Part shown: positions 12,018 through 30,428 of the stretch, piece after piece | Layout: each line of letters begins with the position of its first letter | Numbering within the stretch: the stretch's first letter is position 1 | NCBI GenBank assembly: GCA_963790015.1 | Contig: CAWBMW010000017.1 | Span: forward strand, 14,252 to 78,251 | Direction: 5' to 3' | DNA: 64,000 nt | Source: an uncultured Gammaproteobacteria bacterium | GTDB taxonomy: Bacteria; Pseudomonadota; Gammaproteobacteria; Steroidobacterales; GCA-2729495 | The notes under the pieces: generated by a model | Databases searched by the model: none | Told to the model about the DNA's origin: nothing | What the model saw: the letters and a program-made list of their open reading frames with translations, nothing else | Made by a program: the position numbers and the translations under genes

Positions 12018-12107
12018 GAGCGCCTTCAGGCGCGACCGGGTATTTCCCGGCAGGCGCGTCTGCGCGCCTGAGGCGAAATACCCGGTCGCGCCTGAAGGCG
12101 CTCCTAC
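12014..12107. repeat. GTAG-type REP, composite 94-bp hairpin between convergent genes
   Basis: GTAGGAGCGCCTTCAGGCGCGACCGGGTATTTCCC...GAAATACCCGGTCGCGCCTGAAGGCGCTCCTAC. Confidence 0.9.
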
Positions 12108-13055
12108 GCCGGGAAGAAGTCGATGGGCTTGGTGGTCGTGACGGCCGGCACGTCCTTCGACAGGAACGTGAACATGCGGATGCGCTGGACCAGCTTCTTC
12201 TCCAGCTCCTCGTCGCCCAGCTCGCTGGACACGACCTCGCACCGCCGACACCTGGCCCGACGGCTCGATCGTCAGCTTCAGCACCAGCTTGCCCTGCAAC
12301 GCGGGGTTGGCGCGGAGCGCGCGGTTGTAGAGCGCGTAGATCGCGCCCTTGTTCTGGTCGAAGACCATCTCGATTTCTTCGCGGCTGCGCCCCGCCTTGC
12401 CCGTGGACGACGCCGGCGCGTCCGGCCCACTGGCGATGCTGGCCACGGCGCTCTGCACCTGGGTCGTGCCGCGCGAGTTCAGGCCGGCGCCGCCGGTGTT
12501 GCGGCTCATGGCCGCGGTGTTGATGCCACCGCTGCCCTTGCCGACCCGCGACGTCAGCAGGGACCGCTCGTTGCGCGTCGCCTCGCCCACCGCGCCCGTC
12601 ACCGCCTGCGCACCGGCAATCTCGGTGACCGCCTTGTCATCACGCAGGTCGGCCAGATCGTCGGCGAAGGCCAGCAGCCCGGACTTCTGCGCCTTTTCCC
12701 GCGCGAGCTTCCGCCGGTCCACCGGCACGGGCTCGGGCTTGACCTCCGCCTTCGGCACGGGCTTCGGCTCGACCTTCTCCACCTTGGGTTCGGGCTTTGG
12801 CTCGACGACCGGCTCCACCTTCGGCGGCGGCACCGGCTTCGGCTGCTCGACGATCAGCTGCACCACCCGGTCCGGAATCTCCGGCGGGCGGGTCAGGTCC
12901 CGCTCGGGGACCGGCATCAGGGGAATCAGGACGCCGAAGACCAGGTAGGCAATGAAGCAGTTGCGGAGGATCTTCCGGAACCGCTCCTCCGACTCTGCGC
13001 CCGGCGACCAGGGCAGTTCGTAGAGCCGGTAGTAGGGCAGCGCGGCCGTGCTCAT
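12104..13055 (-). CDS. tonB: TonB-family energy transducer (N-terminal TM, Pro/Lys/Glu-rich spacer, TonB_C); one frameshift ~12245
   Basis: FIAYLVFGVLIPL TM and a PKPVPPPKVEPVVEPKPEPKVEKVEPKPVPK spacer. The C-terminus ...GKLVLKLTIEPSGQVS / CEVVSSELGDEELEKKLVQRIRMFTF spans two frames. Confidence 0.8.
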
Positions 13056-13579
13056 GCGGTGGCTCCCGCCGCGGACGGCGCGGCCCGCTCCTTCTCGAAC
13101 ACCGCCAGCGACACCTTGCCGAAGTCGGCGTCGGTGCAGGTGGCCATGACCTTCTTCAGCACGGCGTAGGGCGTGCTCTTGTCGCCCATGATCGTGACCT
13201 CACGGCTCGCCACCTCCGCGTCGCTGCCGCTGGCGGCTGCCTGCAGCACCCGGCTGCTCTGCTGGCCGAGGGCCGCCTTGAGGGCGGGAATCACGTTGCC
13301 CTCGGTGGCCTTGATCTCGTCCAGGGTGGCCACGGGCTTGCCGTCGACGAAGAGCGTGTCCCGCGTCAGCATCACGACGAGCGCTTCCCGGGGCTTCAGC
13401 TCCGAGACCGACTGGGGAATGGAGATGTTCTTCGTGTTGGGCAGGATCTCCACGTCAGCCGTGTGCAGCAGGAGGAACACCACCAGGATCGTCAGCATGT
13501 CGATGAACGGCACCAGAGCCAGGTGACCGTCCGGCTTGCGGTTGCGCTCGTGACGACGCTTGAGTCGGGTCGGTGTCAT
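13052..13579 (-). CDS. exbD: ExbD/TolR-family biopolymer transport protein
   Basis: LVPFIDMLTILVVFLL motif, intact. ATGA overlaps on both sides. Confidence 0.9.
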   Translation of the reverse strand: MTPTRLKRRHERNRKPDGHLALVPFIDMLTILVVFLLLHTADVEILPNTKNISIPQSVSELKPREALVVMLTRDTLFVDGKPVATLDEIKATEGNVIPALKAALGQQSSRVLQAAASGSDAEVASREVTIMGDKSTPYAVLKKVMATCTDADFGKVSLAVFEKERAAPSAAGATA

Positions 13580-14110
13580 GTCGGCGCATCCCCCACGGAG
13601 ATCTCGGGAAAGAGTTCAGCCTGTATCGGGCCCGCGCCAGCGGCGCCCGCCTGCCCCGGCGAGGCCGGAAGGACGCGAACCCGGACCGTGTCCATCACCT
13701 GCACCAGCACGTCGTAGGAGATGTCCGGCCCCATCAGGATGGTGGCCGCCTGGTTGTCCGGAAACTTGGCCTTCACGCGCTCCAGGTAGCTGCCGAGCTC
13801 GGACCAGGTCGTAGCCCGTCGCCGTGTTGGGCAGGCTCTGCAGCACGCCGGTGGCCCGGTCCGCCACGTCGATCGAGCCGTCGCGGACGATCACCTCCAG
13901 CTGGAGACCCTCGGGCAGGTCCGGCACGCCGGCCGTGCTGCTCGGCAGGTTCAGCTCGAGGACGTTCGTCTTCGAGAAGACCGCCGTGAAGATCAGGAAG
14001 AACACGAGGATGACCATCATGTCGATCATCGGCACCATGTTCAGGTCATGCCTGCCGCGCAGGCGGGCATGGTGCCGCTGCACGCGGCGGACGCTCTTGG
14101 AGGCTTTCAT
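13576..14110 (-). CDS. exbD: ExbD/TolR-family protein (second copy); one frameshift ~13800
   Basis: LNMVPMIDMMVILVFFLIF. The C-terminal part AKFPDNQAATILMGPDISYDVLVQVMDTV is in another frame. Confidence 0.85.
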
Positions 14111-14138
14111 GGCTTCACGCCTTCCCTGGCAGCGCTGT

Positions 14139-14826
14139 TCAGGCGAGGCCCCGGGCGGTGGCGGGAGCCGGCGCCGGGCGGCAGGGCCTGGGCGGCTGGC
14201 GCTGGCGCCGCGGCGCGCGCTCCGTGACCGCGTTCAGGAACTTGAGCGCGGCGATCTCCAGGCTGTCGATCAGGCCGCGTGGTCTTGGCCTCCAGGAACA
14301 TGTGGGCCATCAGCAGGGTGATGGCCACGATCAGGCCGCCCGCCGTGTTGTTCATGGCGACCGAGATGCTGGCCGCGAGCAGGCTGGCCTTCTCGGCCGG
14401 GTTGGCCGTGGCGATCGCGCCGAAGGCCGCGATCAGGCCGACCACCGTGCCCAGCAGGCCGATGCAGCATGCCCACGTTGGCGAGCGACGACAGGTAGTG
14501 CGTGCGCTTCTCCAGCTTGCGGAATGATCTCGAGGAGGCTCTCCTCCATCGCCTTCTCGAGGTCATCCCGCCGGTGGGTGACCTTGCGTGCGCGCCAGGC
14601 CGTAGCTCAGCACCGTGCCGAGGGCGGTGCCCGACTTGGCGGCCACGTTGGCGGCCTCGGTGAAGTTGCCCGCCTTGAGGCAGGGGGTGATCTTCTCCCA
14701 GAGCTGCCGGTTCGAGATGCTGGCCTTGGTCAGCACCACGAAGCGCTCGATCGCGATGGCGATGCCCACCACGAACAGGGCCGCCATGAAGTACAGGAAG
14801 ATCCCGCCCTCCTGGAAGAAATTCAC
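14139..14826 (-). CDS. exbB: MotA/TolQ/ExbB-family proton channel; at least 3 frame breaks (~14575, ~14465, ~14285)
   Basis: The pieces MNFFQEGGIFLYFMAALFVVGIAIAIERF, KLEKRTHYLSSLANVGML, LLGTVVGLIAAFGAI...AMNNTAGGLIVAITLLMAHMFL and GLIDSLEIAALKFLN are spread over three frames. Confidence 0.85.
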
Positions 14827-14919
14827 GATCGAGTGTGTACGCGTCCATGATCTTCAGTACCTCCAGCCCAGAATTGGTGATCGCACAGTTGCCGTCGGCG
14901 ATTCCCGCCGGCCCGGTAG

Positions 14920-15387
14920 TCAGTCCTTGAGTGCAGTGCCCGTTGCGCCCACCGGAGGGTCCCCACCCGCCGGCCTCCCCGCCAGAGTGCCCGCCCCATA
15001 CAATTGACTGAAATAGCGCGTTTGTCGGCGAAACACTTCACGGTCTACGGGGGCCAGGGCCTCCTCGACCAGGCTGTTGACCGGCCGCCCGGCCAGTTCC
15101 GCCATCGCCGGGTCCTTCCAGGGAACGATGTAGAGCACCTTCGGCAGCTCCTGGTTGCCGCGGATGGCCGTGGCGTCCAGGTTGAGCGGGCCGGGCGGCG
15201 GCTGCCGCGGCTCCACCGCCGTCACCGCGGCGCGCTTCACCGCCGGCGGCTGCTCGGGGTTCAGGGGTTCCTGCGCGCGCACGCCGCAGGCGAGGGACAG
15301 GCCCAGCAGGGCCATCCGGGCGCGCGCCAGCGCCGACGTCTTCAGCGCCTGCAGGCACGGCAGCAGCGCGGCGGGGAGCAGGCTCAT
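14920..15387 (-). CDS. periplasmic protein of unknown function in the TonB/TPR operon
   Basis: Signal peptide MSLLPAALL...MALLGLSLACGVRAQEP and a conserved-looking LPKVLYIVPWKDP. The ATGA overlaps the upstream TPR gene. Confidence 0.5.
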   Translation of the reverse strand: MSLLPAALLPCLQALKTSALARARMALLGLSLACGVRAQEPLNPEQPPAVKRAAVTAVEPRQPPPGPLNLDATAIRGNQELPKVLYIVPWKDPAMAELAGRPVNSLVEEALAPVDREVFRRQTRYFSQLYGAGTLAGRPAGGDPPVGATGTALKD

Positions 15388-15997
15388 GGGGTCCCCTCCG
15401 TCCGGGCCGTCTTGGCCGTGGTGCCCACGCGGCGGCGCAGGTCGGCCACCCACTTCTCCACGTCCGCACTCGCGCCCTCCTCGCCGCCCACCTGCAGGTA
15501 GCGCTCGTAGTTCTGCAGGGCCAGCTCAGGCCGCGGCAGGTAGAGCTCGTAGAGCACGGCCAGGTTGTAGTAGGCCGGCGCGTAGTCCGGCTGGAGTTCG
15601 ATCGCCCGCAGGTAGGCCTGCTCCGCGTCGGCGAAGCGGCCCTGCCGGCGGCCCAGCACGCCCAGTTCGTTCCACGCGGGACCGCAACTGCTGCAGACCC
15701 GCGGTGGCGCGCTGGAAGCAGTCGGCCGCGGCCGCCTCGTCGCCGGCGCGGGCCCTGGCGAGCCCGAGGGTCAGGAGCGGGCCGGCCAGGTCGGGGTGCG
15801 CGGCGCTGAAGCTTCTCGAGATCGGCTAGAGCGGTGGCGTCGGTGGACTGGAGGCGGGACGAGCAGACCGTCGTAGGCGCGACTGGAGCTCGGGGGATGG
15901 GGCTTCGGCGGTCGCGGCTGAAGCCGCTCCTACGGGAGCTTGTGCCAACGGTGGCGCAGCCGGCGAGTGCGCCGAGCGCCAACGCCAGCAGCACCAC
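15384..15997 (-). CDS. TPR-repeat lipoprotein; at least 2 frame breaks (~15805, ~15690); contains a REP arm in its coding sequence
   Basis: Lipobox MVLLALALGALAGC. TPR units are HPDLAGPLLTLGLARARAGDEAAAADCFQRA and AWNELGVLGRRQGRFADAEQAYLRAIELQPDYAPAYYNLAVLY. Confidence 0.7.
15911..15933. repeat. GTAG-type REP, single arm (inside the TPR lipoprotein ORF)
   Basis: GTCGCGGCTGAAGCCGCTCCTAC. Confidence 0.7.
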
Positions 15998-16009
15998 GCC
16001 AGGTTCAGG

Positions 16010-18848
16010 TCAGTCCAGCCGGGCCGCAACATCCTCGCTCCTCTCGGTACGGGCATAGCGGGCCGGCGACATCACGCTGAGACGCGCGAAGCTGGCCCGC
16101 ACCCACTCGTCGTACACACCATCCGTCGACCCGGTCCGCGTTCACGCGGAACAGTTCGATCGCCTTCTCCTCGAACGGGAAGGCCTGCTCCTCGAGCAGC
16201 AGCGCGTATTCCTCCTGCTCGTCGCTGGTCAGGTCCGCGGGCCGCTCCGAGGCCAGCAGGTCGCGGCTCAGCTGGTAGTAGAGTTCCGCGGTCTCGAAGG
16301 TGGCCGCCGTCGTCACCGGGGCCACGCCGTAGTCGGCGGCGGCGCCATAGGCGAGCAGGGCCTCCTCCATGCGCGTCTTCTTGAGCTTCAGGCTCCGGTC
16401 CAGGGGCGCCGTGAGGCTCGCGGCCAGGAAGGCGTCGCGCTTCGGCCGGGCCAGCTCGATGGCGGCGGTCGCGGCGAGGAACCGGCTGCGGTCGGTGCGT
16501 GCGGCGCCGCCGGCGGCGTCCGCCGCGACGATGGCCTCCAGCCAGCGCTTGCGGGCCTGCCAGTCAGCGTCGGCGGCAGCGATGGATGCGAGCTTGTAGC
16601 GCGCCTCCAGCGCCTCGGCGGGCGGCGCGGGAAAGCGCGTCACGATGGCCTCGTAGAGTCGTGCCTCGTTCGCCGGCTGGCCGGCGGCGGCGTAGAGCTC
16701 GGCGGCCTGCCAGAGTGCCGCGCGCTGGACCTCGGCCGTCCCGTCGGTCGCGGCGATGCGCTCGTATTCGCCGGCGGCGTCGGCCGGCCGGCCGTCTTCC
16801 CTGAACGCGACGGCGAGCTTGGCGGTGACGTCGCCGTTGAATTTGTGCGCCGGGAATTCCCGGCGGAAGCGCAGCAGCAGGTCCGTTGCCTGGCCCCAGC
16901 GCTGGCTGGTCAGCAACAGCGTGGCGGCGTCGAACAGCGCGGTCGGCCGGATGTCCGCGTCCGGTGTCGCGTCGGCGATGCGCAGGAAGTTGGCCACCGC
17001 GGCATCGACGTCGCCACTGGCCTGGGCCGACTCGGCCTGCCGGTAGATCGACGCGGCCACGCGCCCCTCCACTTCCTTGCGCTGCTCCGGCGGCAGGTTG
17101 TAGGCGCGCAGCCGCTGGTAGGAGCTCTCGGCGTCCACGAAACGGCCCAGGTCGAACTGGGCGTGGGCCAGCACGGTCCACGCGACCCGCTCCAGCTCCG
17201 GCGTGGCCGGCGGCTGGAGCGTGACGACGAGCCCGGCCACCTGGATGGCCCGGTCGAGCTGGCCCGCCTTGAACAGCTCCTCCGCGACGTTGGTCAGCAC
17301 GGCGCCGGCCTGAGGGTGCGCCGGATAGGTCGCCGCAAACTGCAGGGAGTAGCCGATCTGCTGCTCGTGCCACGCGGCGAGCGCGTCGGCGGTCAGCTGC
17401 TTCTCGTGCTCGCGGGACGCGAGCAGCGCCGCGTAGCCCGCCTCGGCCGCGTGCTCGTGGCTGCCGTAGTCGTAGGCGGAGCGCACGTAGGCATCCCGGG
17501 CCTCGGCGAAGTTCCGGGACTCGAAGAGCAGTTCACCCAGCAGGAAGCTGCGTTCGGCGGACTCCGGGTCCTCCGGGAAATACGCGAGGAAGCGGCGGTA
17601 CCACCCGGCGGCGCGTTCGTAGTCGGCGGGCAGCCTGCTCTTCTGGGCCTCGGCATGGTCGTACGCTGCCAGGTCCGTCAGGTGCGTCTTGAGGGACGCC
17701 ACCACGGTCGCGTAGTCGGCCTGCTGGCGCGTGGCCCAGAACGGCGTGTCGAGCCCGTAGGTCTCCACGTACTCGCGCTTGGCCTCCAGCACCAGGCTGG
17801 GGAACTTGCCCAGCGTGTAGGCCTCGATGGCGGCCTGCTGCAGGCGGGGCGCCTCGTCGTTCACCGGATCGTGGGCGACGAAGGCCTGGTAGGTTTCGGC
17901 CGCGTCCCGGAACCGTTCCTTCTCCAGGTACAGGTCGCCGAGGGCGTCGTAGAGCAGGTAGGTCCAGGCCGGCTCGGGGCCGGACGCCAGCGACACGGGA
18001 ATCGACGCGGCGCCGTCCAGGTACGAGTAGGTGATGCTCGTGACCCGCAGCGTGTCGTCGAGCAGCTCCCGTTCCGGACGGCTCATGCCGTCGACCAGCG
18101 CTGCGGGGCGGGCGCCGCCGGGACCGAGCTTCCGGTCCAGGAGCTGGAGGAAGGAGCGCAGCCCCTCCTCGTTGCGGCCCTGCTTGAAGAGCGCCCAGCC
18201 GTGCTTGTACAGGGACTGCTCGTAGAAGGGCGACGAGTCGCCCCGGGCCAGCACCGCCGCGTAGGCCTGCTCCGCCGCCGTGTAATTCTGCCGGACGAAG
18301 TAGGTTTCCCCGCGCCGGAATTCCGCCTCGTCCTGGTGCTTCGCGGCCGGGTGGCTCGCCACCAGCGTGTCGAGCGTGCGGAGGGCATCGTCGCCCTGGC
18401 CCGCGCCCTCCATCGCCCGGGACAACTGGTAGAGCACCTCGGCGTCGTCGCCGGCGCTGCCGGCCCCGCCCGCGCGGCGCAGTTCGAGGAGCTCGGTGTA
18501 CAGGGTGATGGCCTCGGCGAAGTAGGCGGCGCCGGCGCCAGCCGATTCGCCCTCGCTCTCGGCGTTCACGCCCGCATCCAGGTTCAGGTCGGCGAGACGG
18601 CGCAACGCCTCGGCGCGCATGTCCGCGGACCCGGTCTGCAGCGCCAGGAAGCGGCGGTACTGGTCCATGGCCTGGGCCGCGCTGTCCACCACCGGAGGCT
18701 CGGCGTTGACCTGCACGTCCTGGGACTTGAGGGTGCGGATGGTCGCGCGGGACGCGCCCCGCTCCTTCGCGGCCCCGTCACTGCCGCCGAAGGGCCACAC
18801 ACCGCCCGCGAGGGCGATGCCGACGCACAGTGCCGCCGCGGGCATCAT
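16010..18848 (-). CDS. large (~945 aa) periplasmic TPR-repeat protein; frameshift ~16125
   Basis: The start MMPAAALCVGIALAGG overlaps the stop of the upstream gene. Helical TPR-like repeats run throughout. The true C-terminus DGVYDEWVRASFARLSVMSPARYARTERSEDVAARLD is in the -1 frame. The track ORF N-terminal extension to 19499 is spurious. Confidence 0.8.
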
Positions 18849-20790
18849 TCGGCGGCTCCGCGTTGCGTCTTGCCACTGGACGCGCTTTGGGGCGCGACGC
18901 GCGCGGCCGTGGCGGCCCGGTCGTAGATGGTGGCCAGGGCGAACTGGGCCTGCACCCGGTACGCCGCCAGGCGTTCCCGCTGGTCCTTCAGCGTGTCGAT
19001 GGCGAGGGCCTGCAGCTGCTGCTCCTGCTGGCCGCGGGCCTGGGCAATCACGTTTTGCATGCGCTCGATGCGGGGCGCGACGGCCGCGATCCGGGCGGCG
19101 AAGCCGTCGAGCCCGGCGGGCGTGTCGCGGCGGGCCGTTGCGGCGCCGTCCTGGCCCCGCGTGGCGCGCGCCAGGAGCGCGTCCAGCTCCCGGAGGTTGC
19201 GGCGCTGCTGCCAGAGACGGTACTGGTAGTCCCGGTCGAGCTCCCAGGCCAGCACGCCCGTGAGCAGGCGATGCCGGTCGCGCAGGCCGGCGGCATCGGC
19301 CGCCGCGAGGCCCGGATCGGCGCCGATGCGCGGCCAGGCGCTGCCAGCGGTCCCGTTCCTCGTCGGTGGCGAGCCCGGCCACGTCCCGGCTCGTCCTCGA
19401 TCGCATCCAGGCGCGCGGCGAGCGCGTCGCGCCGGGCCTGCAGCGCCGGCAGGTCCACCCGGTCGAGTCCCTCCCGGAGCCGCGGCTCCCGCTGCGCATA
19501 GGCCAGGCGCCGCGTGTCCACCATGTCCTCGAAGGCGGCGAGCTTGTCCCGCCACTCCTGAAGGTGCGTCGAGAGCGCGGCGAGGTCCCGCACGTTCCGC
19601 AGTCCCTCCTGGAAGCGGTGGTCGGCGATCAGGTGATAGAGGTAGCGGCCTTCGTTGGAGTCGGGCAGCTCCTTGAGCTCCCAGTACCAGCGGCCGACGC
19701 CGGCATCGTCCGCCGCGAGCAGTGCGCTGATCAGCGTCCCGCCGGGATCCGCGGCGCCGGCTGATGGCGTCATCCAGGTTCGCGATCTCGGCGTCGAAGG
19801 ACGCGAGCGCGGACTGGTAGCCCTCGGCCGCCGAGCCGTGCGCGTCGAGCTCCGCGTAGGCGTAGGGAATGGCGAGGAGCGATTCCTGCACGGCGCTGTC
19901 GAGCAGATCCCGGTTCCGGAGCTCGAGCCAGGGCGTGAGGGCGCCGCGGAAGTCGTGCGCGGCGGCGTCCGCCCAGCCGACGCCGAGCAGGGCCTTGTTG
20001 GCGAAGGGACTCTCCAGGCGGACGCGCTCGAGCACGGGCCGCGCCTGGCCGTCGAGGGACTGCTGGAGGTAGGCGTAGCCGAGCGCGAGGTTGGCCTTGT
20101 CCCGCAGGTCGAGCAGCTCCGCCGACGACGGCGAGCTCCGCCCCACCCGGTCCAGCTGGCGCGCGCCGTCGTCGAGCCGGTTCAGGCGGACGAAGGCCAC
20201 GCCCAGGTTGTAGCGGGCGTAGGGCGCCCAGCCCTCCGGGCCCTGCCAGCCATCGAGTAGTTCCGCAGCAGAATCAAAGCGTTCCAGCGCCATCAGCGAC
20301 TGGGCCTGAAGCATGGGAAGCTCGGCCGCGAGCCCTTCCGGGAGCGCGCCGGAGACGCGGGCGAAGGCCGCCAGGGCGTCCTCGTGCAGGCCCCGCTGGT
20401 AGCGGACCTTGCCCAGGTAGAACCAGGCCCGGTCCCGCACGGACGGGGCGACGTCCTGGGTCAGCAGGCGGTTGAAGATCTCCTCGGCGCGCACGTGCTG
20501 GCCGTAGTGCAGGTAGAGCCCGCCCAGCAGCAGCTCCGATTCCGCCTCGTGGTTGCCGACGCGGCCGGCGGCCCGGGCCGCCAGCAGGTGCGTGAGCGCG
20601 TCGAAGTGCTCGTCCTGGTAGAACTGGAACAGGGCCTCGCCGTAGTACAGGTCCCGGATCGCCGTCGGCGCCGCCACGTCGTCCGCGCGGGCGGACAGGC
20701 ACGCGCCCGCCGCCAGCACGCCGGCCAGCAGGCCAGCAGGTTACGGCCGGCGCGCAGGGACCGGCCCCGCCTGGCGGGCGACAACGCCAC
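18845..20790 (-). CDS. ~650-aa TPR-repeat protein with signal peptide; at least 4 frame breaks (~20735, ~19770, ~19385, ~19330)
   Basis: GTG start with VALSPARRGRSLRAGRNLLA / LLAGVLAAGACLSARADD. The N-terminal TPRs (LYYGEALFQFYQDEHFDAL...) and the middle segment WYWELKELPDSNEGRYLYHLIADHRFQEGLRNVRDL lie in alternative frames. Confidence 0.75.
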
Positions 20791-20793
20791 GGG

Positions 20794-21363
20794 CTACTCC
20801 CACTCCTTCACCAGGAACTCGGGCTGCTGCTTGCTCTCCCGGTCGGAGATGCGCAGCTCGACGAACTTGGCGCCGATGCCCTTCTCCACCTTCAGCGTGG
20901 CACCGCGCCGGTAGTCCCGGGCGTGGGGGCCCTGGCCGGTGAACACGGCCGTCAGCTCGTGCTCGCCCGTCTTCAGGTTGCCCAGGTAGATCCGGTGCAC
21001 GCCGCCGCGGAGGAGCGCCGCGACCTCGCGCTCGGTGTAGAGGTAGTTGCTGACCGGCTTGTCGTCGATCCGCAGCTGCACCGAATCCAGGTCGAAGAAG
21101 TCGCCCACGTCCATGGAGACGAAGACCGCCACCTGGGTATTGGCCGGGAAGAGCAGCTCTTCCTCCAGGAGGAACAGTTCCCGGTTGAGGTCCAGCACCT
21201 CGTCCTTGAGGACCTGCACCTCGCTGTCCACGCTCGCCGTCGGCGGCCGGCGCGGCGCGGGCGCGGCGGCCTCCTCCACGGCCCGGACCGGCTGGAGGCC
21301 CAGCGCGGCGCCGAGAAGCAGGGCGCCGGTTATGAAATGCAGCTTGAAGCGTTTGGGTGTCAT
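20794..21363 (-). CDS. secreted protein of unknown function, first structural gene after the redoxin in the TonB/TPR operon
   Basis: Intact. Signal peptide MTPKRFKLHFITGALLLGAALGLQPVRA, followed by a beta-rich body. Confidence 0.65.
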   Translation of the reverse strand: MTPKRFKLHFITGALLLGAALGLQPVRAVEEAAAPAPRRPPTASVDSEVQVLKDEVLDLNRELFLLEEELLFPANTQVAVFVSMDVGDFFDLDSVQLRIDDKPVSNYLYTEREVAALLRGGVHRIYLGNLKTGEHELTAVFTGQGPHARDYRRGATLKVEKGIGAKFVELRISDRESKQQPEFLVKEWE

Positions 21364-21373
21364 GGTGCGTCCT

Positions 21374-21868
21374 CTACTCCTGGAGAAGAGCGGCCAGCTC
21401 TTCGTCGTACAGGGCGGCATCGCCGCCCCGGTATTTCTCGTGCACGTGCCGCACGGTGCCGTGGGCGTCCACGAGCACGGTCAGCGGCAGGTTGGACAGG
21501 TCGTACTGGCGGGCGACGGACTGGTCGCTGTCGTGCAGGACCAGCACGCCGGAGCGGCCAGCGGCCTCGCGGGCAGGCCTGGCGTCGGTGTCGATGTTGA
21601 CCGTGACCACCCGGACCCCGCGCTCGCCGTACTGCTTCTGGAGGCGTGCGAGTTCCTGGAGCTGGTCGCTGCAGCGGCCGCACCAGTCGGCCCAGAAGGA
21701 CAGCAGCACCACTTCGCCCCTCCATTCGGAGAGGCGCAGGTTCTCGCCGGCGGCGTTCTTCAGGGCGAAATCGGGGGCCGGCTGGCCGGGAACGACGGTG
21801 CCGGAGCCGATGGCCAGCGACGGCAAGAGAATTGCCGTGAGGAGCATGGCCAGAAGCTGCGTGCGCAT
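21374..21868 (-). CDS. TlpA-like periplasmic thiol:disulfide oxidoreductase (redoxin family)
   Basis: Signal peptide MRTQLLAMLLTAILLPSLAIG and active site WADWCGRC. The track ORF N-terminal extension was ignored. Confidence 0.85.
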   Translation of the reverse strand: MRTQLLAMLLTAILLPSLAIGSGTVVPGQPAPDFALKNAAGENLRLSEWRGEVVLLSFWADWCGRCSDQLQELARLQKQYGERGVRVVTVNIDTDARPAREAAGRSGVLVLHDSDQSVARQYDLSNLPLTVLVDAHGTVRHVHEKYRGGDAALYDEELAALLQE

Positions 21869-22140
21869 CCCGAATTCTTCCCGTGTTCCGCGTTCAGGCG
21901 GACAGGGGCAACGCACTGGCTTGGGGGACGCGCGGAAACGCGGTCTGACGACCGCGTTCGAGTCCGGCAGCCCCGCTGTCATGGACGAACTGGCGTTCGC
22001 CGGTAGACCGGTGGCTTTGCGTCCCCGCCTTTCAGCAGGTTTGCCCTTGTCGGCACGGGAATGTTGACAATTTCCGGCGGCGAATCCTGCGACCTCGCTC
22101 ACGTCCTCTCGTGCGTGAGTAAAATTGCACTGCGCTTATG

Positions 22141-23057
22141 TCAAACCTTCAGAGGCACCGGGTTTGGCATCTGGGCATTTGCGCTGCCCTGCATCCGTCG
22201 CCAGCGGGTCGCGGCCTTGGTAATCGACGACAGGTCACGATTGAAGCGCCGGGCAATTTCGGTAAACGTCGCGGCACCCTCCAGGGTGGCAGTTACGGCA
22301 ATCTCGGCGCGCAGGCGGGAGAGGATATGGCTCTTGCCGGGCTCTGCGAGATGCTCCTCGCCGTACACCGGCCCGGTGGCACACGATGGCGACGATCTCG
22401 TCAACGGTTCGCCCCGGTCGACGCCCGGCGTCGACCGGGGCAGCGCTGACGGCGTCATCGACGACCCGTTCCGCGAGGATCTCCCGGGCGATGTCCATGG
22501 CCTCGGGTGACTGCACCGCTTCCCCACAGAATCGGGCGAAGACCTGACGGGCTTCAACAGACCCTGGCGCGAGCGGTCCGAGCACGGCGTCCGGATGAAT
22601 CCACGGCACATCAACCACGCCCACGTAGCAGCGGTGACTGGACCACGGGTAGTCACCCGGCGCGGCCACCAGTCCTGGCGCGCACCGGATTGAGGTGCAC
22701 ATACCGCACGACGTGTAGCAATTGTTCCTGCCGGATGACAAGGACATCGTGATAGCGCCGCTCGAACAGGTGACCCGTGGTCCCGCAGCGACGCTGCAGG
22801 TAGCGTGCGTACCTGGAGCCGATGATCTGCATCAGGTCGCCCAGTGGCTGCCGGTCAACCCGCACGACCAGATGAATGTGATTGGTCATCCAGCAGTAGG
22901 CGATCACCCGCGCCCCGGTGCGCTCACTCGCACCCCTTGCGATGGCATCCAGCGCCGACCGGTCGGCAGGATCCCGGAAGATCTCCTGCCGATGATTGCC
23001 CCGGAGCGTGACGTGGTAGTACCCGCCCTGAATATGCACGCGCCGACGCCGCGACAT
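22141..23057 (-). CDS. IS200/RAYT-like Y1 tyrosine transposase domain fused to a DnaA-C-like HTH; two frame breaks (~22680, ~22400)
   Basis: HUH motif WMTNHIHLVV and Tyr motif VRYVHLNPVRAGL. The C-terminus ILSRLRAEIAVTATLEGAATFTEIARRFNRDLSSITKAA is a DnaA domain IV-like HTH. The ORF ends inside the left IR. Confidence 0.75.
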
Positions 23058-23188
23058 TGCCAGTCCCCTGACCAGGCTGGATTCTCGCCTGCCGGTGAAT
23101 GTCACGGCCTGCGACCAATCTGGCCTCTTTAACTGGATTCACTGCACTGACGCAGAAATGCCCAGATGCCAAACCCGGTGCTTCTGAA
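22148..23188. mobile_element. 1,041-bp unit bounded by 33-bp inverted repeats, carrying a Y1 (HUH) IS200-like transposase gene
   Basis: Left IR 22148-22180 is TTCAGAGGCACCGGGTTTGGCATCTGGGCATTT. The reverse complement of right IR 23156-23188 is TTCAGAAGCACCGGGTTTGGCATCTGGGCATTT (32/33 match). Confidence 0.6.
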
Positions 23189-24161
23189 CTACCGGGACTG
23201 CAGTGCCTTTGAGAAGCGGACGTTGCGCTCGGCGTCGATGACGACGGCGGCGTAGCCGGGCGTGGCGTCGATGAGCGCGAGGCCGCGCTCCGGACCGAGG
23301 ATGAACACGGCGTTGTCCAGGCCGTCGGTCATGGTGGCGTCCGGACCGATCACGGTGACGCTGCGGACGCCCGCGCGCCGAGTCGCCGGTCTTCGGATTG
23401 ATGATGTGGTGATAGCGGACGCCGTCCTCGTCGAAGTAGCGCTCGTAGTCACCGGCCGTGGAGATCGCCTCGTCGTCCAGCGCCAGACGCGTGACCCAGC
23501 GATCGTCCGCGTCGGGGTCCCGGATGCCGACCATCCAGGGCCTGCCCCTGGCGGTCGCCGATCAGGCGCGTGTCGCCGCCGGCATTCACCCGTCCCGAGC
23601 GGCACGCCGGCCTTGCGCAGGAGGTCCGCCACCCGGTCGCAGGAGTAGCCCTTGCCGATGCCGCCCAGGTTGATCCGGGTCCCCTCCTGCGTGAAGCGGA
23701 TGGTCGAGGCGGCCGGGTCGAGGAGCACGTGGCGGTAGTTGATGTCCGGGAGGTTCTTCCGGATCGCAGTCGGCGTCGGGCCGGACCCCGGCCCGGAAGT
23801 CATAGAGCTTCCCCACGCTGTCGAAGGTGATGTCGAAGGCGCCGTCCGACAGCACCGACAGCTCCAGGGACTTCTGGACGATGCCGAAGAGCTCGGCGGA
23901 CACCTTCACCGGCTCCCGGGCGGCCAGCCGGTTGACCCGGGAGATCTCCGAGTCCTCCCGGTACGTGCTCATCCAGGACTCGATGCGGTCGAACTCCGCC
24001 ATTCCCGCGGCGAGCAGCGGCCGGGCGGCCGCCTCGCTGTCGGCCCACAGCTGGATCTCGACCTTCGTGCCCATCTTCTGCCGGGCATCGCTGTACCACT
24101 CCGCCCGGAGTGGCGCGGCGGCCAGCAGCAGCAGGCAGGCACAGAGAGGGACACGGCGCAT
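23189..24161 (-). CDS. apbE: FAD:protein FMN transferase ApbE; at least 3 frame breaks (~23770, ~23590, ~23385)
   Basis: Signal MRRVPLCACLLLLAAAPLRA. The pieces MGTKVEIQLW, AFDITFDSVGKLYDF, INLGGIGKGYSCDRVADLL, AISTAGDYERYF...YHHIINPKTG and ATMTDGLDNAVFILG lie in alternating frames. Confidence 0.85.
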
Positions 24162-24211
24162 GGCGAGTCGTCCGCCCGGAGACGAGCCGGATGGTAACGC
24201 CCGGCGCGCCG

Positions 24212-25423
24212 TCAGAACCAGAGGGAGAAGAACAGCTGGACGACGGTGGCGTCGAAGTCGTAGAACGGTTCCGTCCCGGCGTCCACGTCGGCACGCAGGT
24301 CGCGGAAGTCGTCGTAGGTGTACATGTAGTAGTCCACGAAGAGGTTGACCGTGCTCTTCAGCGGCCGCTCGCCCTGCCGGTCCAGGAAGGTGTAGGTCAC
24401 GCCCGCGCGCGGGCCCTGGCTCTGGAAGGTGCTGAGCTCCTTGTCCCGGGCCAGGTAGTTCTGGGCATTGGCGTAGGGAAACAGGTCGCTGTAGAAGTCC
24501 GCGGCGGACTGGGTGTAGAAGCGGTACCTGACGTCGAAGAGCCACCTCGCGCGGAACGGGTGGACGTAGCCGACCTCGACCGTGTGGGCGTCGATGCCCC
24601 AGTCGTCCGTGAAGAAGCGGTACTCGCCCGAGACCGCGGCCCGGTACGGCAGGTGGTACTTGCCCCGGATCGCAACGGCGTTGCTCGCCCGGGTCTCCGG
24701 GTACACCTCGCCCTGGGTCAGCCAGTTCGTCGGGTCGGCCGGGTCCACGTAGCGCACCTGGCGATACGGGTTGTTCAGGTAGCCCTCGTCGGCGACCGCC
24801 TCGTAGGACAGGCCCATGATCAGGTTGCGGGTGATGACCTGGGTGACGCCGAGCCGGTAGGCGTGGCGGTCGACCTCCTCGGCGAAGACCTCGTCGCCGC
24901 GCCGGCTCACCTCGTCGGCGCCGCTGCCGTAGCCCAGCGTGATGGTCGTCAGCCCGCCGAACACATCCTGGCTGATGGCGAAGTTCAGCGTGTCGGCCTG
25001 GTAGTCGTTTCGTCGCTGGTGCTGTAGCCCACGCTCATCGTGGTGTCGCCACGGAGGTAGTCGACACCGACGCCGTACTGGGTGCGCTCCTCGCTGTAGC
25101 CATCGGGGCTGGCGCCCGTGGTGACCACGTCGATCGACGCGCTGCTGATCGTGTCCACGTAGTAGCTGCCCGAGACCGAGACCTTCTCACCCACGGACTT
25201 CCGCACCAGCACGCGACGGGCCATCGATCTGGACGCCGCCGCCGTCGTAGTAGTGATAGAGCGTGTCGACGCGCTCCTCGGGCAGCACGCCGGAATAGGC
25301 ACTTGTGGAGAACAGGAGCAGTAGGAGCGGCTTCAGCCGCGACCGGTATTTCCCTCTGGCGCTGAGACGCGCCTGACGGGAAATACCGGTCGCGGCTGAA
25401 GCCGCTCCTACTGTTTCGTTCAA
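24212..25423 (-). CDS. DUF3570 outer-membrane beta-barrel protein; frame breaks ~25215 and ~25010; N-terminus read through a REP
   Basis: The C-terminal 250 aa are intact and end ...VQLFFSLWF. The upstream pieces LYHYYDGGGVQIDGP and SGSYYVDTISSASIDVVTTGASP are in other frames. Confidence 0.8.
25321..25411. repeat. GTAG-type REP, composite 91-bp hairpin (inside the 5' end of the DUF3570 gene)
   Basis: GTAGGAGCGGCTTCAGCCGCGACCGGTATTTCCC...GGGAAATACCGGTCGCGGCTGAAGCCGCTCCTAC. Confidence 0.9.
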
Positions 25424-25430
25424 CGCATCA

Positions 25431-25652
25431 TCAGTTGCACCCGCAACCGCCGCCGGAGCTGCCGGAGGCGCCCCGGGCGCCCTCGCGGGCCTCGTGGACG
25501 TGATCGATATAGGAGCCCGACACCGGGTTCCGGTCGAAGCTCATGATCGGATCGGCCAGGCGGTCCCGCTCGTAGGGCTTCACCCAGGGCTCGACGCCGG
25601 TGCAGCCCGCGAGCAGGAGGGCGGCGGCCAGGATGACAGCGCCGGGCTTCAT
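25431..25652 (-). CDS. DUF4266 lipoprotein
   Basis: Lipobox LLLAGC and the family-typical C-terminus GGGCGCN. Confidence 0.8.
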   Translation of the reverse strand: MKPGAVILAAALLLAGCTGVEPWVKPYERDRLADPIMSFDRNPVSGSYIDHVHEAREGARGASGSSGGGCGCN

Positions 25653-26170
25653 GCCTTCTCCCGGATCAGCTGGCGGATCATGTCCTGGTACTTGCTCTCG
25701 TCACCGGGCTGGTAGCCCTGGTGGATGAAGCGCACGTTGCCCTTGCGGTCGACGATCACGGTGCTCGGCATGGCCGACACGTTGTAGAGCTTGCTCACCC
25801 CGTTGGCCGGATCGAGGAGGATCGGGAAGGTCACGGGCACGTCCTTGAGGAAGGCCTCCATCAGCCGGGTGTCCTCCTCCACGTTCACGCCGAGCATCGT
25901 GAAGCCCAGCGGCGCGTACTTCTTCTGGATCTGCTCCAGCAGCGGCATTTCCTTGCGGCAGGGGCCGCACCAGGTCGCCCAGAAATTGATCAGCACCACC
26001 TGGCCCTTGAGGTCAGCCAGGGCGACGGGCTTGCCAGCCCGGGATGGCAGGTTGAACGCGGCGGCCGGCGCGGCGGCATCGCCGGCAGCGCTCCCCGGCA
26101 CGACCGGCGCTGCCAGCAGGGTCGTCGCGATGACCACGGCGCCGAGCAGCTTTGGCATCGTCTTGCTCAT
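25649..26170 (-). CDS. TlpA-family thiol:disulfide interchange protein
   Basis: FWATWCGPCRKEMP active site and a signal peptide. Overlaps DUF4266 by 4 nt. Confidence 0.9.
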   Translation of the reverse strand: MSKTMPKLLGAVVIATTLLAAPVVPGSAAGDAAAPAAAFNLPSRAGKPVALADLKGQVVLINFWATWCGPCRKEMPLLEQIQKKYAPLGFTMLGVNVEEDTRLMEAFLKDVPVTFPILLDPANGVSKLYNVSAMPSTVIVDRKGNVRFIHQGYQPGDESKYQDMIRQLIREKA

Positions 26171-26177
26171 GGATACC

Positions 26178-26838
26178 TCAGAAGAACCAGGAAAGGCCCA
26201 GGTTGAACTCGATGTTGTGGGTGGTCTTGTCCTCGCCCGTGACGTCGTTGTCGAACATGTGGTTGCGCACGTCGAAGCGCAGGGCGATCGAGTCCGTCGC
26301 CAGCACCCGGTAGCCGGCGCCGAAGGTCAGCGTGAACAGGTCCTCGCCGGCGAAGCTCGTGTTGCCGGCGCCGCCGATCACGTAGAGCGCCGAGTTGAAG
26401 GCGCGGTTCCGGCCGAGGAACACCTCGCCCGGCAGCAGGTTCCAGCCGACCGCCAGGTCGTAGTAGCTGTAGTCCCGGTCGTCGCCGAGCAGGTCGATGT
26501 TGTCGAGCACCTCGACGCTGGACCGGTCCACGTCGCCGGTCATGGCGTAGGTGCCCTCGAGGAACAGGCTCTCGCTCACGTGGTAGGCCACGCGGGCGCC
26601 GTAGATGAAGTTCGAGCCGAAGTCCTCGACGCTGATCTGGCCCACGTAGGCCGTGATCTCGAAGTCCTCGGTGTCGATCTTCGGCGTGCGTGATCTCGCG
26701 CCGCTCCACCTCCGGCGAGATGACCGGCGCGGACGCCCCGGCATCCTCCATCGGAGGCTCGTCCCGGCCGAAGAGGCTGCAGCCGGTCGTGGCTGCCACC
26801 AGTCCGGTCAGAAGAAGAACGCGAAGCCCGCTTTCCAT
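26178..26838 (-). CDS. outer-membrane beta-barrel lipoprotein (OMP_b-brl type); frameshift ~26690
   Basis: Lipobox LVAATTGC. The barrel part DFEITAYVGQISVEDF...IEFNLGLSWFF ends in an aromatic C-terminal residue. Confidence 0.7.
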
Positions 26839-27550
26839 TCGTCCAGTTCCTCGTTGTCGTCGCGGCTCGTGAAAGTCAGGTAGCTGTTGTACTCACCCCG
26901 GAACATGAAGCGCCGGGTCACGTACATCCGGAGCCCGAGGCCCACGTGCCCCACCTGGTCCGTGCGGTCCTCCGTCTGGACCAGCGTCGCCGCGGGCTCG
27001 ATGTGGATCACGCCCGTCCCCAGCGCCGCGTAGGGCGACACGCGCCACTCCGGGAACGGCTGGTGCACGATGTCGGCCGTCGCGATCCAGCCGCTCGAGT
27101 AGTCGCCGCTGATGTCGCCCACCCGGAGTTCCGTCGACAGGTTGCGGGTGAAGTGGTACCCGCCGTAGACGGAAATCACGCTCGCGCCGTCGAGGTCGCC
27201 CAGCTGGAGGCCCACCTCCCAGCGCCGCCCCACGTAGTCGTCGGCCGTCGGGTCGTCCAGGGCGCGTCGGCTTGCCCGCCGTATCCAGCGTCTCCGCCAT
27301 CTGCTCGAGCTTCACCCAGCCCTCGACGCCCTTCGCCGTGCGCACCTGGAACCAGTCGGTCCGGCGCTTCACGCACGTCGATCTGCTCGCCCTTGTCCAC
27401 CACATGGAACACCGGGAAGCCCCGCCCGGGTCCCGTGTGGAGCTCGAGAAAGGGCTCCGCCACGACGGCCTCATAGTGGCTGGTCTTGCCATAAGCCGGT
27501 GTGACGGAGGGCAAGAAAACGAGGGCCGCAATGAGGATGAACTGGCGCAT
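26808..27550 (-). CDS. SH3-domain plus outer-membrane beta-barrel protein; frame breaks ~27370 and ~27250
   Basis: Signal MRQFILIAALVFLPSVTPAYG. SH3b-like region is LELHTGPGRGFPVFHVVDKGEQIDV / RRTDWFQVRTAKGVEGWV. The barrel ends ...WKAGFAFFF. Confidence 0.7.
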
Positions 27551-27568
27551 GACGCTTCCTGAACGGGA

Positions 27569-30220: not shown

Positions 30221-30428
30221 CCTTGCAGTCATCATCATCCCCATCACGGCCTGCCCAAGAAAAGGCCGTGATGCATAAGAGCCGATGCGCGGCGCCCAAT
30301 TGCCCGCGAGATAACGTAATACAGCGACATTTCCACGAACCGTTAAGGCAGTCACAGAACCCCGGACTGCTCCCAAAGCTAAATGCATCCCGGCGCGCAA
30401 GGCGCCAGGCTTTTGGGATGGGCACAAC

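What the first reader, a model, noticed from the sequence alone, without database searches (positions are those of the whole stretch)
12104..21868. Ten-gene operon coupling an ExbB-ExbD-ExbD-TonB motor to three TPR proteins, two small periplasmic proteins and a redoxin (Agl/Glt-core-like layout)
All ten genes are on the minus strand. Junctions are tight or overlapping, with ATGA overlaps at 13052-13055, 13576-13579, 15384-15387 and 18845-18848.

Gene order:
1. TlpA-like redoxin
2. 189-aa secreted protein
3. ~650-aa TPR protein
4. ~945-aa TPR protein
5. TPR lipoprotein
6. small periplasmic protein
7. ExbB
8. ExbD
9. ExbD
10. TonB-like protein

This differs from a canonical tonB-exbBD locus and from the Vibrio TonB2/Ttp cluster. 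A TolQ/R-type motor with a TonB-like protein and several large TPR proteins is instead the composition of the conserved core of the Myxococcus Agl-Glt gliding machinery. Comparative studies of that machinery have reported homologous cores, of unknown function, in non-gliding proteobacteria. The function here is uncharacterised; candidates include envelope-spanning energised transport, surface dynamics, or OM protein/lipid handling.
Basis: partly seen in the sequence, partly recalled or inferred. Interest (0 to 1): 0.6.

Follow-up and report, generated by a model that had tools for sequence, protein, structure and literature searches.

The report
Riboswitch-led Glt-type envelope motor operon
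This is a copy of the proton-driven "core complex" related to the Myxococcus gliding machine. The kind has been known since 2011 and its job is still unknown. Here it sits behind a c-di-GMP-class riboswitch, and its apparent gene breaks are almost certainly sequencing errors.

Summary
The ten minus-strand genes, their order, the outer coordinates (12104-21868) and all four ATGA overlaps are real.

In this assembly six of the ten genes are interrupted by 16 isolated one-base insertions. Removing them restores every frame. The same kind of break affects 30 of 76 genes compared on seven contigs, so I read them as assembly errors, not decay.

The operon is the stand-alone Agl/Glt "core complex" of Luciano et al. 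2011: gltC-gltD-gltE-extra gene-aglR-aglQ-aglS-gltG. Gene order and sizes match their table for eight proteobacteria. The TonB-like protein carries the AgmX/PglI tail domain.

Added here:
- A c-di-GMP-I-GGC riboswitch lies 94 nt upstream of the redoxin gene. It is conserved in the genus and recurs before the redoxin in at least 28 Steroidobacterales loci.
- The 189-aa protein is a near-universal ninth member of the cluster.
- The operon abuts the ApbE/DUF3570/DUF4266/TlpA flavin module, with which the core co-occurs (64 of 78 versus 27 of 322 genomes).
- The motor cassette of this lineage was swapped.

Separate canonical TonB-ExbB and Tol systems exist in the genus. This scan has found the core, and its link to the redox module, before on other DNA. 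Verdict: a new member of a known kind, of moderate interest.

The parts
22116..22144 (-). Promoter-like stretch: TTGACA (22139-22144), 17-nt spacer, TACTCA (22116-22121)
   Evidence: It is conserved in four loci of the genus (coordinates). The consensus scan did not call it. This is an inference only.
21962..22054 (-). c-di-GMP-I-GGC riboswitch aptamer (Rfam RF03167)
   Evidence: 71.1 bits against a gathering score of 59, E 3e-15, full model 1-80. It sits at the same place in L011, L013 and L030.
21937..21958 (-). GC-rich hairpin just after the aptamer, followed by UUUCC; a possible expression platform
   Evidence: Fold and alignment. Its function is inferred.
21374..21868 (-). TlpA/ResA-like periplasmic thiol-disulfide oxidoreductase (164 aa, signal peptide, WCGRC motif); intact
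   Evidence: Pfam AhpC-TSA and Redoxin; sequence. It is a paralogue of the redoxin in the upstream flavin module.
20794..21363 (-). p189: secreted protein with a signal peptide, a long helix and an 8-strand beta-sandwich; intact
   Evidence: No Pfam or NCBIfam hit. AlphaFold2 pLDDT 85, with no PDB relative. It is present directly before the GltC-like gene in nearly all 112 loci examined.
18845..20731 (-). GltC-like TPR protein (~620 aa). It is broken by one-base insertions at 19757, 19390 and 19329. The start is uncertain (GTG 20719).
   Evidence: The size and position equal those of the MXAN_2541 homologues in Table S3.
16010..18848 (-). GltD-like TPR scaffold (~945 aa), with one insertion at 16128 that alters the last 38 residues
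   Evidence: TPR families and the YbgF-type repeat model TIGR02795 at 95.9 bits.
15384..16032 (-). GltE-like TPR lipoprotein (LAGC lipobox). Five insertions at 15942, 15880, 15860, 15812 and 15705. The probable start is GTG 15997.
   Evidence: Weak hit to NF033758 GltE (31 bits).
14920..15387 (-). Small secreted protein x (155 aa), the 'extra gene' of the core complex; intact
   Evidence: No family hit. It has a conserved C-terminal beta-strand plus helix motif. Its position equals the unlisted locus tag in Table S3.
14139..14848 (-). ExbB/TolQ/AglR-like proton channel (~234 aa). Five insertions at 14830, 14587, 14524, 14464 and 14278.
   Evidence: Pfam MotA_ExbB.
13576..14110 (-). First ExbD/TolR-like plug (aglQ position, ~177 aa), with one insertion at 13803. 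The transmembrane Asp is present.
13052..13579 (-). Second ExbD/TolR-like plug (aglS position, 175 aa); intact, transmembrane Asp present
12104..13055 (-). GltG-like TonB-type transducer (~316 aa), with one insertion at 12239 just before the last 44 residues
   Evidence: NF033768 at 67.7 bits on the intact orthologue. TonB-CTD fold..
23192..30262 (-). Linked upstream module on the same strand: haem lipoprotein with a hydrazine-synthase-like domain, SH3-OMP, OMP, redoxin, DUF4266, DUF3570 and ApbE
   Evidence: tblastn mapping. The same order stands directly before p189 in distant Gammaproteobacteria.
22147..23188 (-). IS200/RAYT-like element inserted between the ApbE stop and the riboswitch promoter; not part of the system
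   Evidence: It is absent at this point in L011 and L030.

Best explanation
The region is the Steroidobacterales version of the stand-alone Agl/Glt 'core complex' operon.

Transcription probably starts at a conserved promoter-like site. It then passes a c-di-GMP-I-class (GGC variant) riboswitch and reads ten genes:
1. A TlpA-like periplasmic reductase.
2. A secreted beta-sandwich protein (p189).
3. A GltC-like TPR protein.
4. A GltD-like TPR protein.
5. A GltE-like TPR lipoprotein.
6. A small secreted protein (x).
7. An AglR/TolQ/ExbB-like channel.
8. A TolR/ExbD-like plug.
9. A second TolR/ExbD-like plug.
10. A GltG-like TonB-type transducer.

By analogy with Tol, Exb and Agl motors (inferred), five channel subunits surround a heterodimeric plug and convert proton flow into movement of the transducer's membrane helix. 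The transducer's proline-rich linker crosses the periplasm. Its conserved disordered segment and TonB-type C-terminal domain dock onto the GltD-like scaffold. The GltE-like lipoprotein, the GltC-like adaptor, p189 and x tie that scaffold to the outer membrane.

The most likely thing acted upon (inferred from gene linkage only) is the neighbouring flavin/haem/thiol outer-membrane module: the DUF3570 barrel, two OMPs, a haem lipoprotein, ApbE and redoxins.

The 16 one-base insertions that break six genes are artefacts of the assembly. The operon is intact in the organism.
For: Identity:
- Domain content.
- Order and sizes equal to Table S3 of PMC3169522.
- NF033768 above its cut-off, plus GltG and GltJ hits. 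The GltG hit covers the segment that the 2025 structural model places in the GltD crevice.
- The predicted architecture is TM helix, Pro-rich linker and TonB-CTD. Its best PDB matches are HasB, H. pylori TonB and FusB CTDs, two of which (6sly, 7zc8) are entries the 2025 paper cites for GltJ and GltG.

Conservation:
- 29 of 31 relatives.
- The nine-gene string is kept in 19 of 20 class-level loci with GC 39-78% and in nearly all of 112 loci.
- The GltD-like gene is in 79 of 400 Gammaproteobacteria sampled.
- 3707 cluster representatives at E <= 1e-30, including ~1500-aa GltC-GltD fusions.

Operon start: the riboswitch.

Link to the redox module.

Artefact reading:
- All 16 breaks are +1 insertions, seen against two references, and their removal restores all frames.
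- 30 of 76 genes are broken genome-wide, with an excess of insertions on many contigs.
- Completeness is 61.8% in only 28 contigs.
Against: - No experiment bears on function. The function of the core complex has been unknown since 2011.
- Homology of the two big TPR proteins to M. xanthus GltD and GltC was not tested directly here.
- The GltE, GltG and GltJ equivalog cut-offs are far from met.
- The TonB-like protein lacks the FHA domains of GltG.
- The cargo idea rests on gene neighbourhood among related genomes, which are not independent samples.
- rpoB is intact over 4 kb, so the indel density is uneven.
- I did not establish the ligand of the GGC riboswitch variant.
Confidence: 0.78

Rival explanations
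1. It is a decaying, non-functional copy. On this reading the frameshifts are real and six of the ten genes are pseudogenes in this strain.
For: Six genes are interrupted in the sequence as given. Breaks are denser in the ExbB and TPR-lipoprotein genes, at 5 each in about 650 nt. rpoB is clean.
Against: All 16 events are +1 insertions and none is a deletion. The same defect hits 39% of genes compared on seven contigs, including flanking unrelated genes. Between the breaks the sequence keeps strong third-position GC and 85-90% identity to intact orthologues. Genome completeness is only 61.8% despite 28 contigs.
Confidence: 0.08
2. It is an extra TonB-ExbB-ExbD energiser for TonB-dependent outer-membrane uptake, in the manner of the Vibrio TonB2/Ttp cluster. 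On this reading the TPR proteins are accessories.
For: It has an ExbB/ExbD/TonB-type domain set. The C-terminal domain has the TonB-CTD fold and just passes TIGR01352 (28.1 against 27.1).
Against: No TonB-dependent receptor gene is in or beside the operon in 112 loci. Pfam TonB_C is below its cut-off (18.4 against 24.6), as are the ExbB equivalogs. There is no DUF3450 or TtpC-type component. A canonical TonB-ExbB locus exists elsewhere, at G000 C13:103928-105079.
Confidence: 0.05
3. It is a Tol-Pal-like paralogue that tethers or remodels the outer membrane (division, envelope integrity, lipid homeostasis) and is unrelated to the neighbouring redox genes.
For: The best NCBIfam hit of the channel is TolQ (66.9 bits). 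The GltD-like protein passes the YbgF/CpoB repeat model (95.9 against 90.1). TolA domain III is among the fold matches. The 2025 model likens AglR5QS-GltG to TolQ5R2-TolA.
Against: There is no TolB or Pal gene in the cluster. A bona fide TolQ is present elsewhere in the genus (288 bits). There is strong co-occurrence and adjacency with DUF3570-type modules. This rival overlaps with the best explanation on motor mechanics and differs only in the output.
Confidence: 0.09

Closest known systems
Agl/Glt 'core complex' (Group B genes gltC, gltD, gltE, gltG, aglR, aglQ, aglS plus one extra gene) of non-gliding Gamma- and Betaproteobacteria, Geobacter and Fibrobacter (Luciano et al. 2011, PMC3169522)
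   Same: Same gene set, order and protein sizes, including the unnamed gene between gltE and aglR. It forms a single co-directional cluster. There are second copies in some genomes. The function is unknown.
   Different: Four things are not described in that paper as far as I read it. The operon is led by a c-di-GMP-class riboswitch and a TlpA-like redoxin. The conserved p189 gene stands upstream of gltC. The flavin/haem module is adjacent. The first plug subunit has Asn at the proton-carrying position in about half of the loci.
Myxococcus xanthus Agl-Glt gliding machine and Agl-Nfs spore-coat machine
   Same: A TolQ/TolR-type motor with two different plug subunits. A TonB-type transducer with the AgmX/PglI tail. 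Periplasmic TPR scaffolds in GltD, GltE and GltC positions.
   Different: No GltI or GltJ type parts and no FHA domains on the transducer were seen. The GltG, GltJ and GltE equivalog scores are far below their cut-offs. GltA, GltB, GltH, GltK and CglB were not searched for. p189 and x are extra. Gliding is not expected.
Tol-Pal system (TolQRA-TolB-Pal-CpoB)
   Same: The motor architecture, a periplasm-spanning transducer with a TonB/TolA-like end domain, and CpoB-type TPR repeats.
   Different: There is no TolB or Pal. The TolQ and TolR equivalog scores are not met. A separate Tol system is present in the genus.
TonB-ExbB-ExbD uptake energisers, including Xanthomonas tonB-exbB-exbD1-exbD2 and Vibrio TonB2/Ttp
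   Same: An ExbB-type channel, two ExbD-type genes and a TonB-CTD fold.
   Different: The gene order differs. There are three TPR proteins and two secreted proteins, no receptor gene and no TtpB or TtpC. A canonical system lies elsewhere in the genome.
DsbD-type ApbE / DUF3570 / thioredoxin-like / DUF4266 flavinylation clusters (Meheust et al. 2021, PMC8238504)
   Same: The redoxin at the head of the operon is a paralogue of that module's thioredoxin-like protein. The module itself lies directly upstream at 23192-26170.
   Different: That paper does not mention a Tol/Exb/TPR partner. The DUF3570 genes linked to the core are a low-scoring subtype (90-140 bits).

Membership tests
Agl/Glt core complex (Luciano et al. 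2011) | One TolQ/ExbB-like gene and two TolR/ExbD-like genes clustered together | tested here: met
   Pfam MotA_ExbB and ExbD x2 on the window pieces and on intact orthologues.
Agl/Glt core complex (Luciano et al. 2011) | GltG-type transducer: single TM helix, Pro-rich linker, TonB-like C-terminal domain of the AgmX/PglI kind | tested here: met
   NF033768 at 67.7 bits against a cut-off of 40. GltG model E 1.7e-9. AlphaFold2 architecture and TonB-CTD fold matches.
Agl/Glt core complex (Luciano et al. 2011) | Cluster order gltC-gltD-gltE-extra gene-aglR-aglQ-aglS-gltG, with sizes of about 550-690, 930-1016, 160-263, x, 205-272, 169-188, 162-185 and 321-334 aa | tested here: met
   Sizes and order of the window and L011 genes compared with Table S3.
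Agl/Glt core complex (Luciano et al. 2011) | Sequence homology of the two large TPR proteins to M. xanthus GltD (MXAN_4870) and GltC (MXAN_2541) | not testable with these tools
   No M. xanthus sequence or GltC/GltD model could be obtained. NCBIfam gave only generic TPR and YbgF hits. The best 150 of the profile search were all close relatives. The link is taken from the paper.
Agl/Glt core complex (Luciano et al. 2011) | TPR lipoprotein related to GltE | tested here: inconclusive
   NF033758 GltE at 31.1 bits (cut-off 225) ranks below PilW, Tgl and PrsT, so this is generic TPR similarity. The lipobox is present.
Full Myxococcus Agl-Glt gliding machine | GltG and GltJ equivalogs with cytoplasmic FHA, ZnR or GYF domains | tested here: not met
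   GltG 36.8 bits against 650 and GltJ 32.4 against 450. The cytoplasmic N-terminus is only about 20-30 residues.
Full Myxococcus Agl-Glt gliding machine | GltA/B/H/K outer-membrane barrels, CglB adhesin and GltF | not tested
   No models or sequences were at hand. The small proteins hit no NCBIfam model even at E 10. OMP_b-brl proteins exist upstream, but their relation to GltA and GltB was not examined.
Canonical TonB-ExbB-ExbD uptake system | ExbB, ExbD and TonB equivalog or family scores | tested here: not met
   TIGR02797 at 45.6 against 206, the ExbD models well below their cut-offs, and Pfam TonB_C at 18.4 against 24.6. Only TIGR01352 is marginally passed.
Canonical TonB-ExbB-ExbD uptake system | Being the genome's housekeeping (only) TonB system | tested here: not met
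   G000 has 5 MotA_ExbB and 5 TonB_C places, including an adjacent TonB_C and ExbB pair on C13.
Tol-Pal | TolQ and TolR equivalogs with TolB and Pal in the cluster | tested here: not met
   TolQ 66.9 against 221 and TolR 23-27 against 127. There is no TolB or Pal gene among the ten. A true TolQ lies elsewhere in G014 (288 bits).
c-di-GMP-I riboswitch, GGC variant (Rfam RF03167) | Covariance-model score at or above the gathering score, over the full model | tested here: met
   71.1 bits against 59, model positions 1-80 of 80. 67-72 bits in three relatives. Ligand binding was not tested.

The most novel reading that the evidence does not exclude
The stand-alone Glt-type motor is one half of a roughly 17-gene, c-di-GMP-gated envelope machine. 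Its other half is the flavinylated DUF3570 barrel with its haem lipoprotein, two OMPs, DUF4266, ApbE and TlpA redoxins. On this reading the proton-driven transducer energises, gates or positions an outer-membrane redox module. That would give the 2011 'core complex' its long-missing cargo and give the 2021 DUF3570 system its missing function. The small protein x would play the GltF-like bridging role: a beta-strand onto the TonB-type domain and a helix into the GltC-like adaptor.
Probability: 0.3. Interest if true: 0.7.

Novelty: new member of a known kind. Interest (0 to 1): 0.4.

Why it matters
The core complex is found in about a fifth of the Gammaproteobacteria sampled here, and nobody knows what it does. 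This copy adds three testable handles.
- A cyclic-dinucleotide riboswitch ties its expression to surface and biofilm signalling.
- A thiol reductase and a conserved secreted protein belong to the same transcript.
- It stands side by side with a flavin/haem outer-membrane module.

The motor-cassette swap shows which parts travel together: the channel, both plugs and the membrane-proximal two thirds of the transducer. The TonB-type end domain stays with the TPR scaffold, which is the pattern expected from who touches whom.

The practical lesson is that this genome is full of one-base insertions. Any apparent pseudogene in it needs checking.

Tried and rejected
- The promoter and terminator consensus scan found nothing above chance.
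- Two word-index homology searches returned only near relatives with generic names, so they gave no bridge to named Glt proteins.
- The best 150 hits of the exhaustive profile search were all close family members, so Myxococcus GltD was not reached.
- A PDB sequence search with the TonB-like protein found nothing meaningful. The fold search did.
- The fold search with p189 gave only generic beta-sandwich matches (E > 0.001, TM <= 0.37). The database label 'AraC family regulator' for its relatives is rejected, because the protein has a signal peptide and no DNA-binding domain.
- The small protein x has no family in Pfam, NCBIfam or the Atlas.
- Rejected reading: that the region is the only TonB system.
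- Rejected reading: that the ten genes are a strain-specific assembly.


Full report
**Observation**

The window has about 70% GC, so many spurious frames stay open. A third-position GC plot showed the coding phase changing inside what should be single genes between 12.1 and 21.9 kb.

I fetched the orthologous locus of a near-complete genome of the same genus (G014, locus L011), where all ten genes are intact.
- Six of them were split over two to four frames.
- The outer coordinates (ATG at 21868, TAG at 12104-12106) and the four ATGA overlaps are exact.
- Pfam confirms the redoxin, three TPR proteins, MotA_ExbB, two ExbD and, on the intact orthologue, a weak TonB_C.

**The breaks**

DNA alignment to G014 showed isolated one-base insertions in the window. 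A second intact locus, L030, carries the same motor type as the window and showed the same ones.
- GltC-like gene: 19757, 19390 and 19329.
- GltD-like gene: 16128.
- TPR lipoprotein: 15942, 15880, 15860, 15812 and 15705.
- ExbB: 14830, 14587, 14524, 14464 and 14278.
- First ExbD: 13803.
- TonB-like gene: 12239.

Deleting these 16 bases in silico restores open frames of 627, 945, 202, 234, 177 and 316 codons that end at the expected stops.

All the events are +1 insertions. The flanking ApbE, OMP, haem-lipoprotein and membrane-protein genes carry the same defect.

Across fifteen 20-kb stretches of G014, 30 of 76 comparable genes are frame-broken in this genome on seven contigs, at 0.66 shifts per coding kb. 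One-base insertions outnumber deletions about threefold. Completeness is only 61.8% for 28 contigs.

rpoB is clean, so the density is uneven. I conclude, at about nine to one, that the operon is intact in the organism.

**What it is**

NCBIfam places the C-terminus of the TonB-like protein in NF033768, the AgmX/PglI tail domain, at 67.7 bits against a cut-off of 40. There are secondary hits to the GltG and GltJ equivalogs. The channel and plugs fall below every TolQ/ExbB and TolR/ExbD equivalog cut-off.

Luciano et al. 2011 (PMC3169522) described seven 'Group B' genes: gltC, gltD, gltE, gltG, aglR, aglQ and aglS. With one extra gene, these form a single cluster of unknown function in non-gliding Gamma- and Betaproteobacteria, Geobacter and Fibrobacter.

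Their Table S3 lists, for Methylibium, Marinobacter, Hahella, Cellvibrio, Saccharophagus, Shewanella, Teredinibacter and Thioalkalivibrio, the same order and nearly the same sizes as here. It also shows one unlisted locus tag between gltE and aglR. That position is occupied here by the small secreted protein x.

AlphaFold2 on an alignment of 77 orthologues gives the transducer these parts:
- an N-terminal membrane helix;
- a proline-rich linker;
- a conserved but disordered segment;
- a confident C-terminal domain whose best PDB matches are TonB-type C-terminal domains (HasB, H. pylori TonB, FusB), followed by TolA domain III.

The GltG model hit covers residues 154-305. That range includes the segment which the 2025 structural model of the Myxococcus machine places in a crevice of GltD.

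**Conservation**

- The GltD-like gene is found in 29 of 31 relatives and in all 13 genera sampled in the order.
- A scan of species genomes returned 591 confirmed loci before hitting its limit. The best 80 are from Steroidobacterales-type MAGs and Peristeroidobacter.
- In an even sample of 400 Gammaproteobacteria it occurs in 79 genomes, often twice.
- In 20 class-level loci with GC from 39 to 78%, the nine-gene string is kept in 19: p189, GltC-like, GltD-like, GltE-like, x, ExbB, ExbD, ExbD, TonB-like. It is kept in nearly all of 112 loci overall.
- p189 is therefore a regular member of the cluster, although the 2011 paper could not list it because it has no Myxococcus homologue.
- Fusions support physical association. 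About 1500-aa GltC-GltD proteins appear among 3707 family representatives. A 736-aa TPR cluster matches the p189 fold.
- p189 itself is a signal peptide, a long helix and an eight-stranded beta-sandwich with no specific structural relative.

**Not the housekeeping system**

The genome has five MotA_ExbB and five TonB_C places, including an adjacent canonical pair on contig 13. G014 has a true TolQ.

**Operon head**

An Rfam scan found a c-di-GMP-I-GGC aptamer at 21962-22054 on the minus strand (71.1 bits, gathering score 59). It lies 94 nt upstream of the redoxin start and is followed by a GC-rich hairpin.

The leader, including a TTGACA box, is conserved in the genus. Steroidobacteraceae loci have a canonical c-di-GMP-I aptamer at the same place.

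A model built from five copies finds the element in front of the redoxin in 28 of 99 loci. It finds none in the class-level loci.

It also ties expression to cyclic-dinucleotide signalling. I did not establish the ligand of the GGC variant.

An IS200/RAYT-like element (22147-23188) is inserted exactly between the ApbE stop and this leader.

**Neighbourhood**

Upstream on the same strand (23192-30262) lie a haem lipoprotein with a hydrazine-synthase-like domain, an SH3-OMP, an OMP, a second TlpA-like redoxin, DUF4266, DUF3570 and ApbE. The same series stands directly before p189 in 8 of 20 class-level loci and in several order-level loci.

In the 400-genome sample, DUF3570 is present in 64 of 78 genomes that have the GltD-like gene, against 27 of 322 that lack it. 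In 39 of the 78 it lies within 25 kb on the same contig. This is a hand tally, and related genomes are not independent.

Meheust et al. 2021 showed that DUF3570 is flavinylated by ApbE. They grouped ApbE, DUF3570, a thioredoxin-like protein and DUF4266 as a DsbD-fed system of unknown function. They do not mention a Tol/Exb/TPR partner.

Earlier notes of this scan reached the same association on other genomes, so it is not new to the scan. I know of no publication of it.

**Motor details**

The second plug always keeps the transmembrane Asp (93 of 93). The first plug has Asn there in 50 of 95 loci, including all 19 class-level ones, and Asp in the Steroidobacteraceae type and in this window.

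The window's channel, plugs and the first two thirds of the transducer are only 42-57% identical to those of G014. The TPR genes and the transducer's end domain are about 90% identical.

In a tree of the GltD-like protein, the window's lineage (L030, L029) sits with G014 (support 0.997). In the motor tree it sits with L034, next to the Steroidobacteraceae type (support 1.0).

The motor cassette was therefore exchanged as a unit. This fits contact between the channel and the transducer's membrane helix on one side, and between the end domain and the TPR scaffold on the other.

**Mechanism**

Shown:
- the parts, their order and their conservation;
- the riboswitch;
- the fold of the transducer's end domain.

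Inferred from Tol, Exb and Agl work:
- a five-subunit channel around a two-subunit plug uses proton flow to move the transducer;
- the transducer transmits force through the GltD-like scaffold to outer-membrane-proximal partners.

Inferred from linkage only: the partner is the flavin/haem/thiol module.

**Verdict**

The thing is a new member of a known but functionally unexplained kind. The observation needs the correction that the sequence as deposited is frame-broken by probable assembly errors.

Noticed in passing
whole genome G000 (e.g. window 23373, 23548, 23602, 23769, 26688, 27265, 27373, 28488): One-base insertions are spread genome-wide. 30 of 76 genes compared with G014 are frame-broken on seven contigs, and insertions outnumber deletions about 3:1. 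Apparent pseudogenes in this assembly are unreliable.
   Followed up: yes
window 12240-14848 versus L011, L030, L034: The motor cassette (ExbB, both ExbD, and the TM and linker part of the TonB-like gene) was exchanged in this lineage. It is 42-57% identical to genus mates but 57-73% identical to L034 and Steroidobacteraceae-type loci. The motor tree and the GltD tree are incongruent.
   Followed up: yes
first ExbD gene, window ~14030 and 95 related loci: The proton-carrying transmembrane Asp of the first plug subunit is Asn in 50 of 95 loci, including all 19 class-level ones. The second plug always has Asp. This window has Asp in both.
   Followed up: partly
window 22147-23188: An IS200/RAYT-like Y1 transposase element is inserted exactly after the ApbE stop and just upstream of the conserved TTGACA of the riboswitch leader. 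It is absent at this site in G014 and L030, and its own ORF is also frame-broken.
   Followed up: partly
window 12014-12108 (and L011:17954-18047): A ~95-bp repeated palindromic (REP-like) element lies between the TonB-like stop and the convergent membrane-protein gene. Its translation recurs in several spurious ORFs.
   Followed up: no
window ~20731-20749: A 10-bp tandem duplication (CCTGCTGGCC) and small indels replace the ATG that G014 uses for the GltC-like gene. The start here may be GTG 20719.
   Followed up: no
L020, L021, L026 (second cluster copies in G026, G028, G029): Paralogous second copies of the nine-gene cluster lack the redoxin and have about 500 bp (room for one more gene) between the second ExbD and the TonB-like gene. 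In L020 a c-di-GMP-I-like aptamer lies just downstream of the TonB-like gene.
   Followed up: no
window 11548-12040 (+): A small polytopic membrane-protein gene converges on the operon. It too carries two one-base insertions (11769, 11867) relative to G014.
   Followed up: no
window 21873: One of the G000-specific inserted bases lies in the ribosome-binding region, 5 nt upstream of the redoxin ATG. The insertions are therefore not confined to coding sequence.
   Followed up: no
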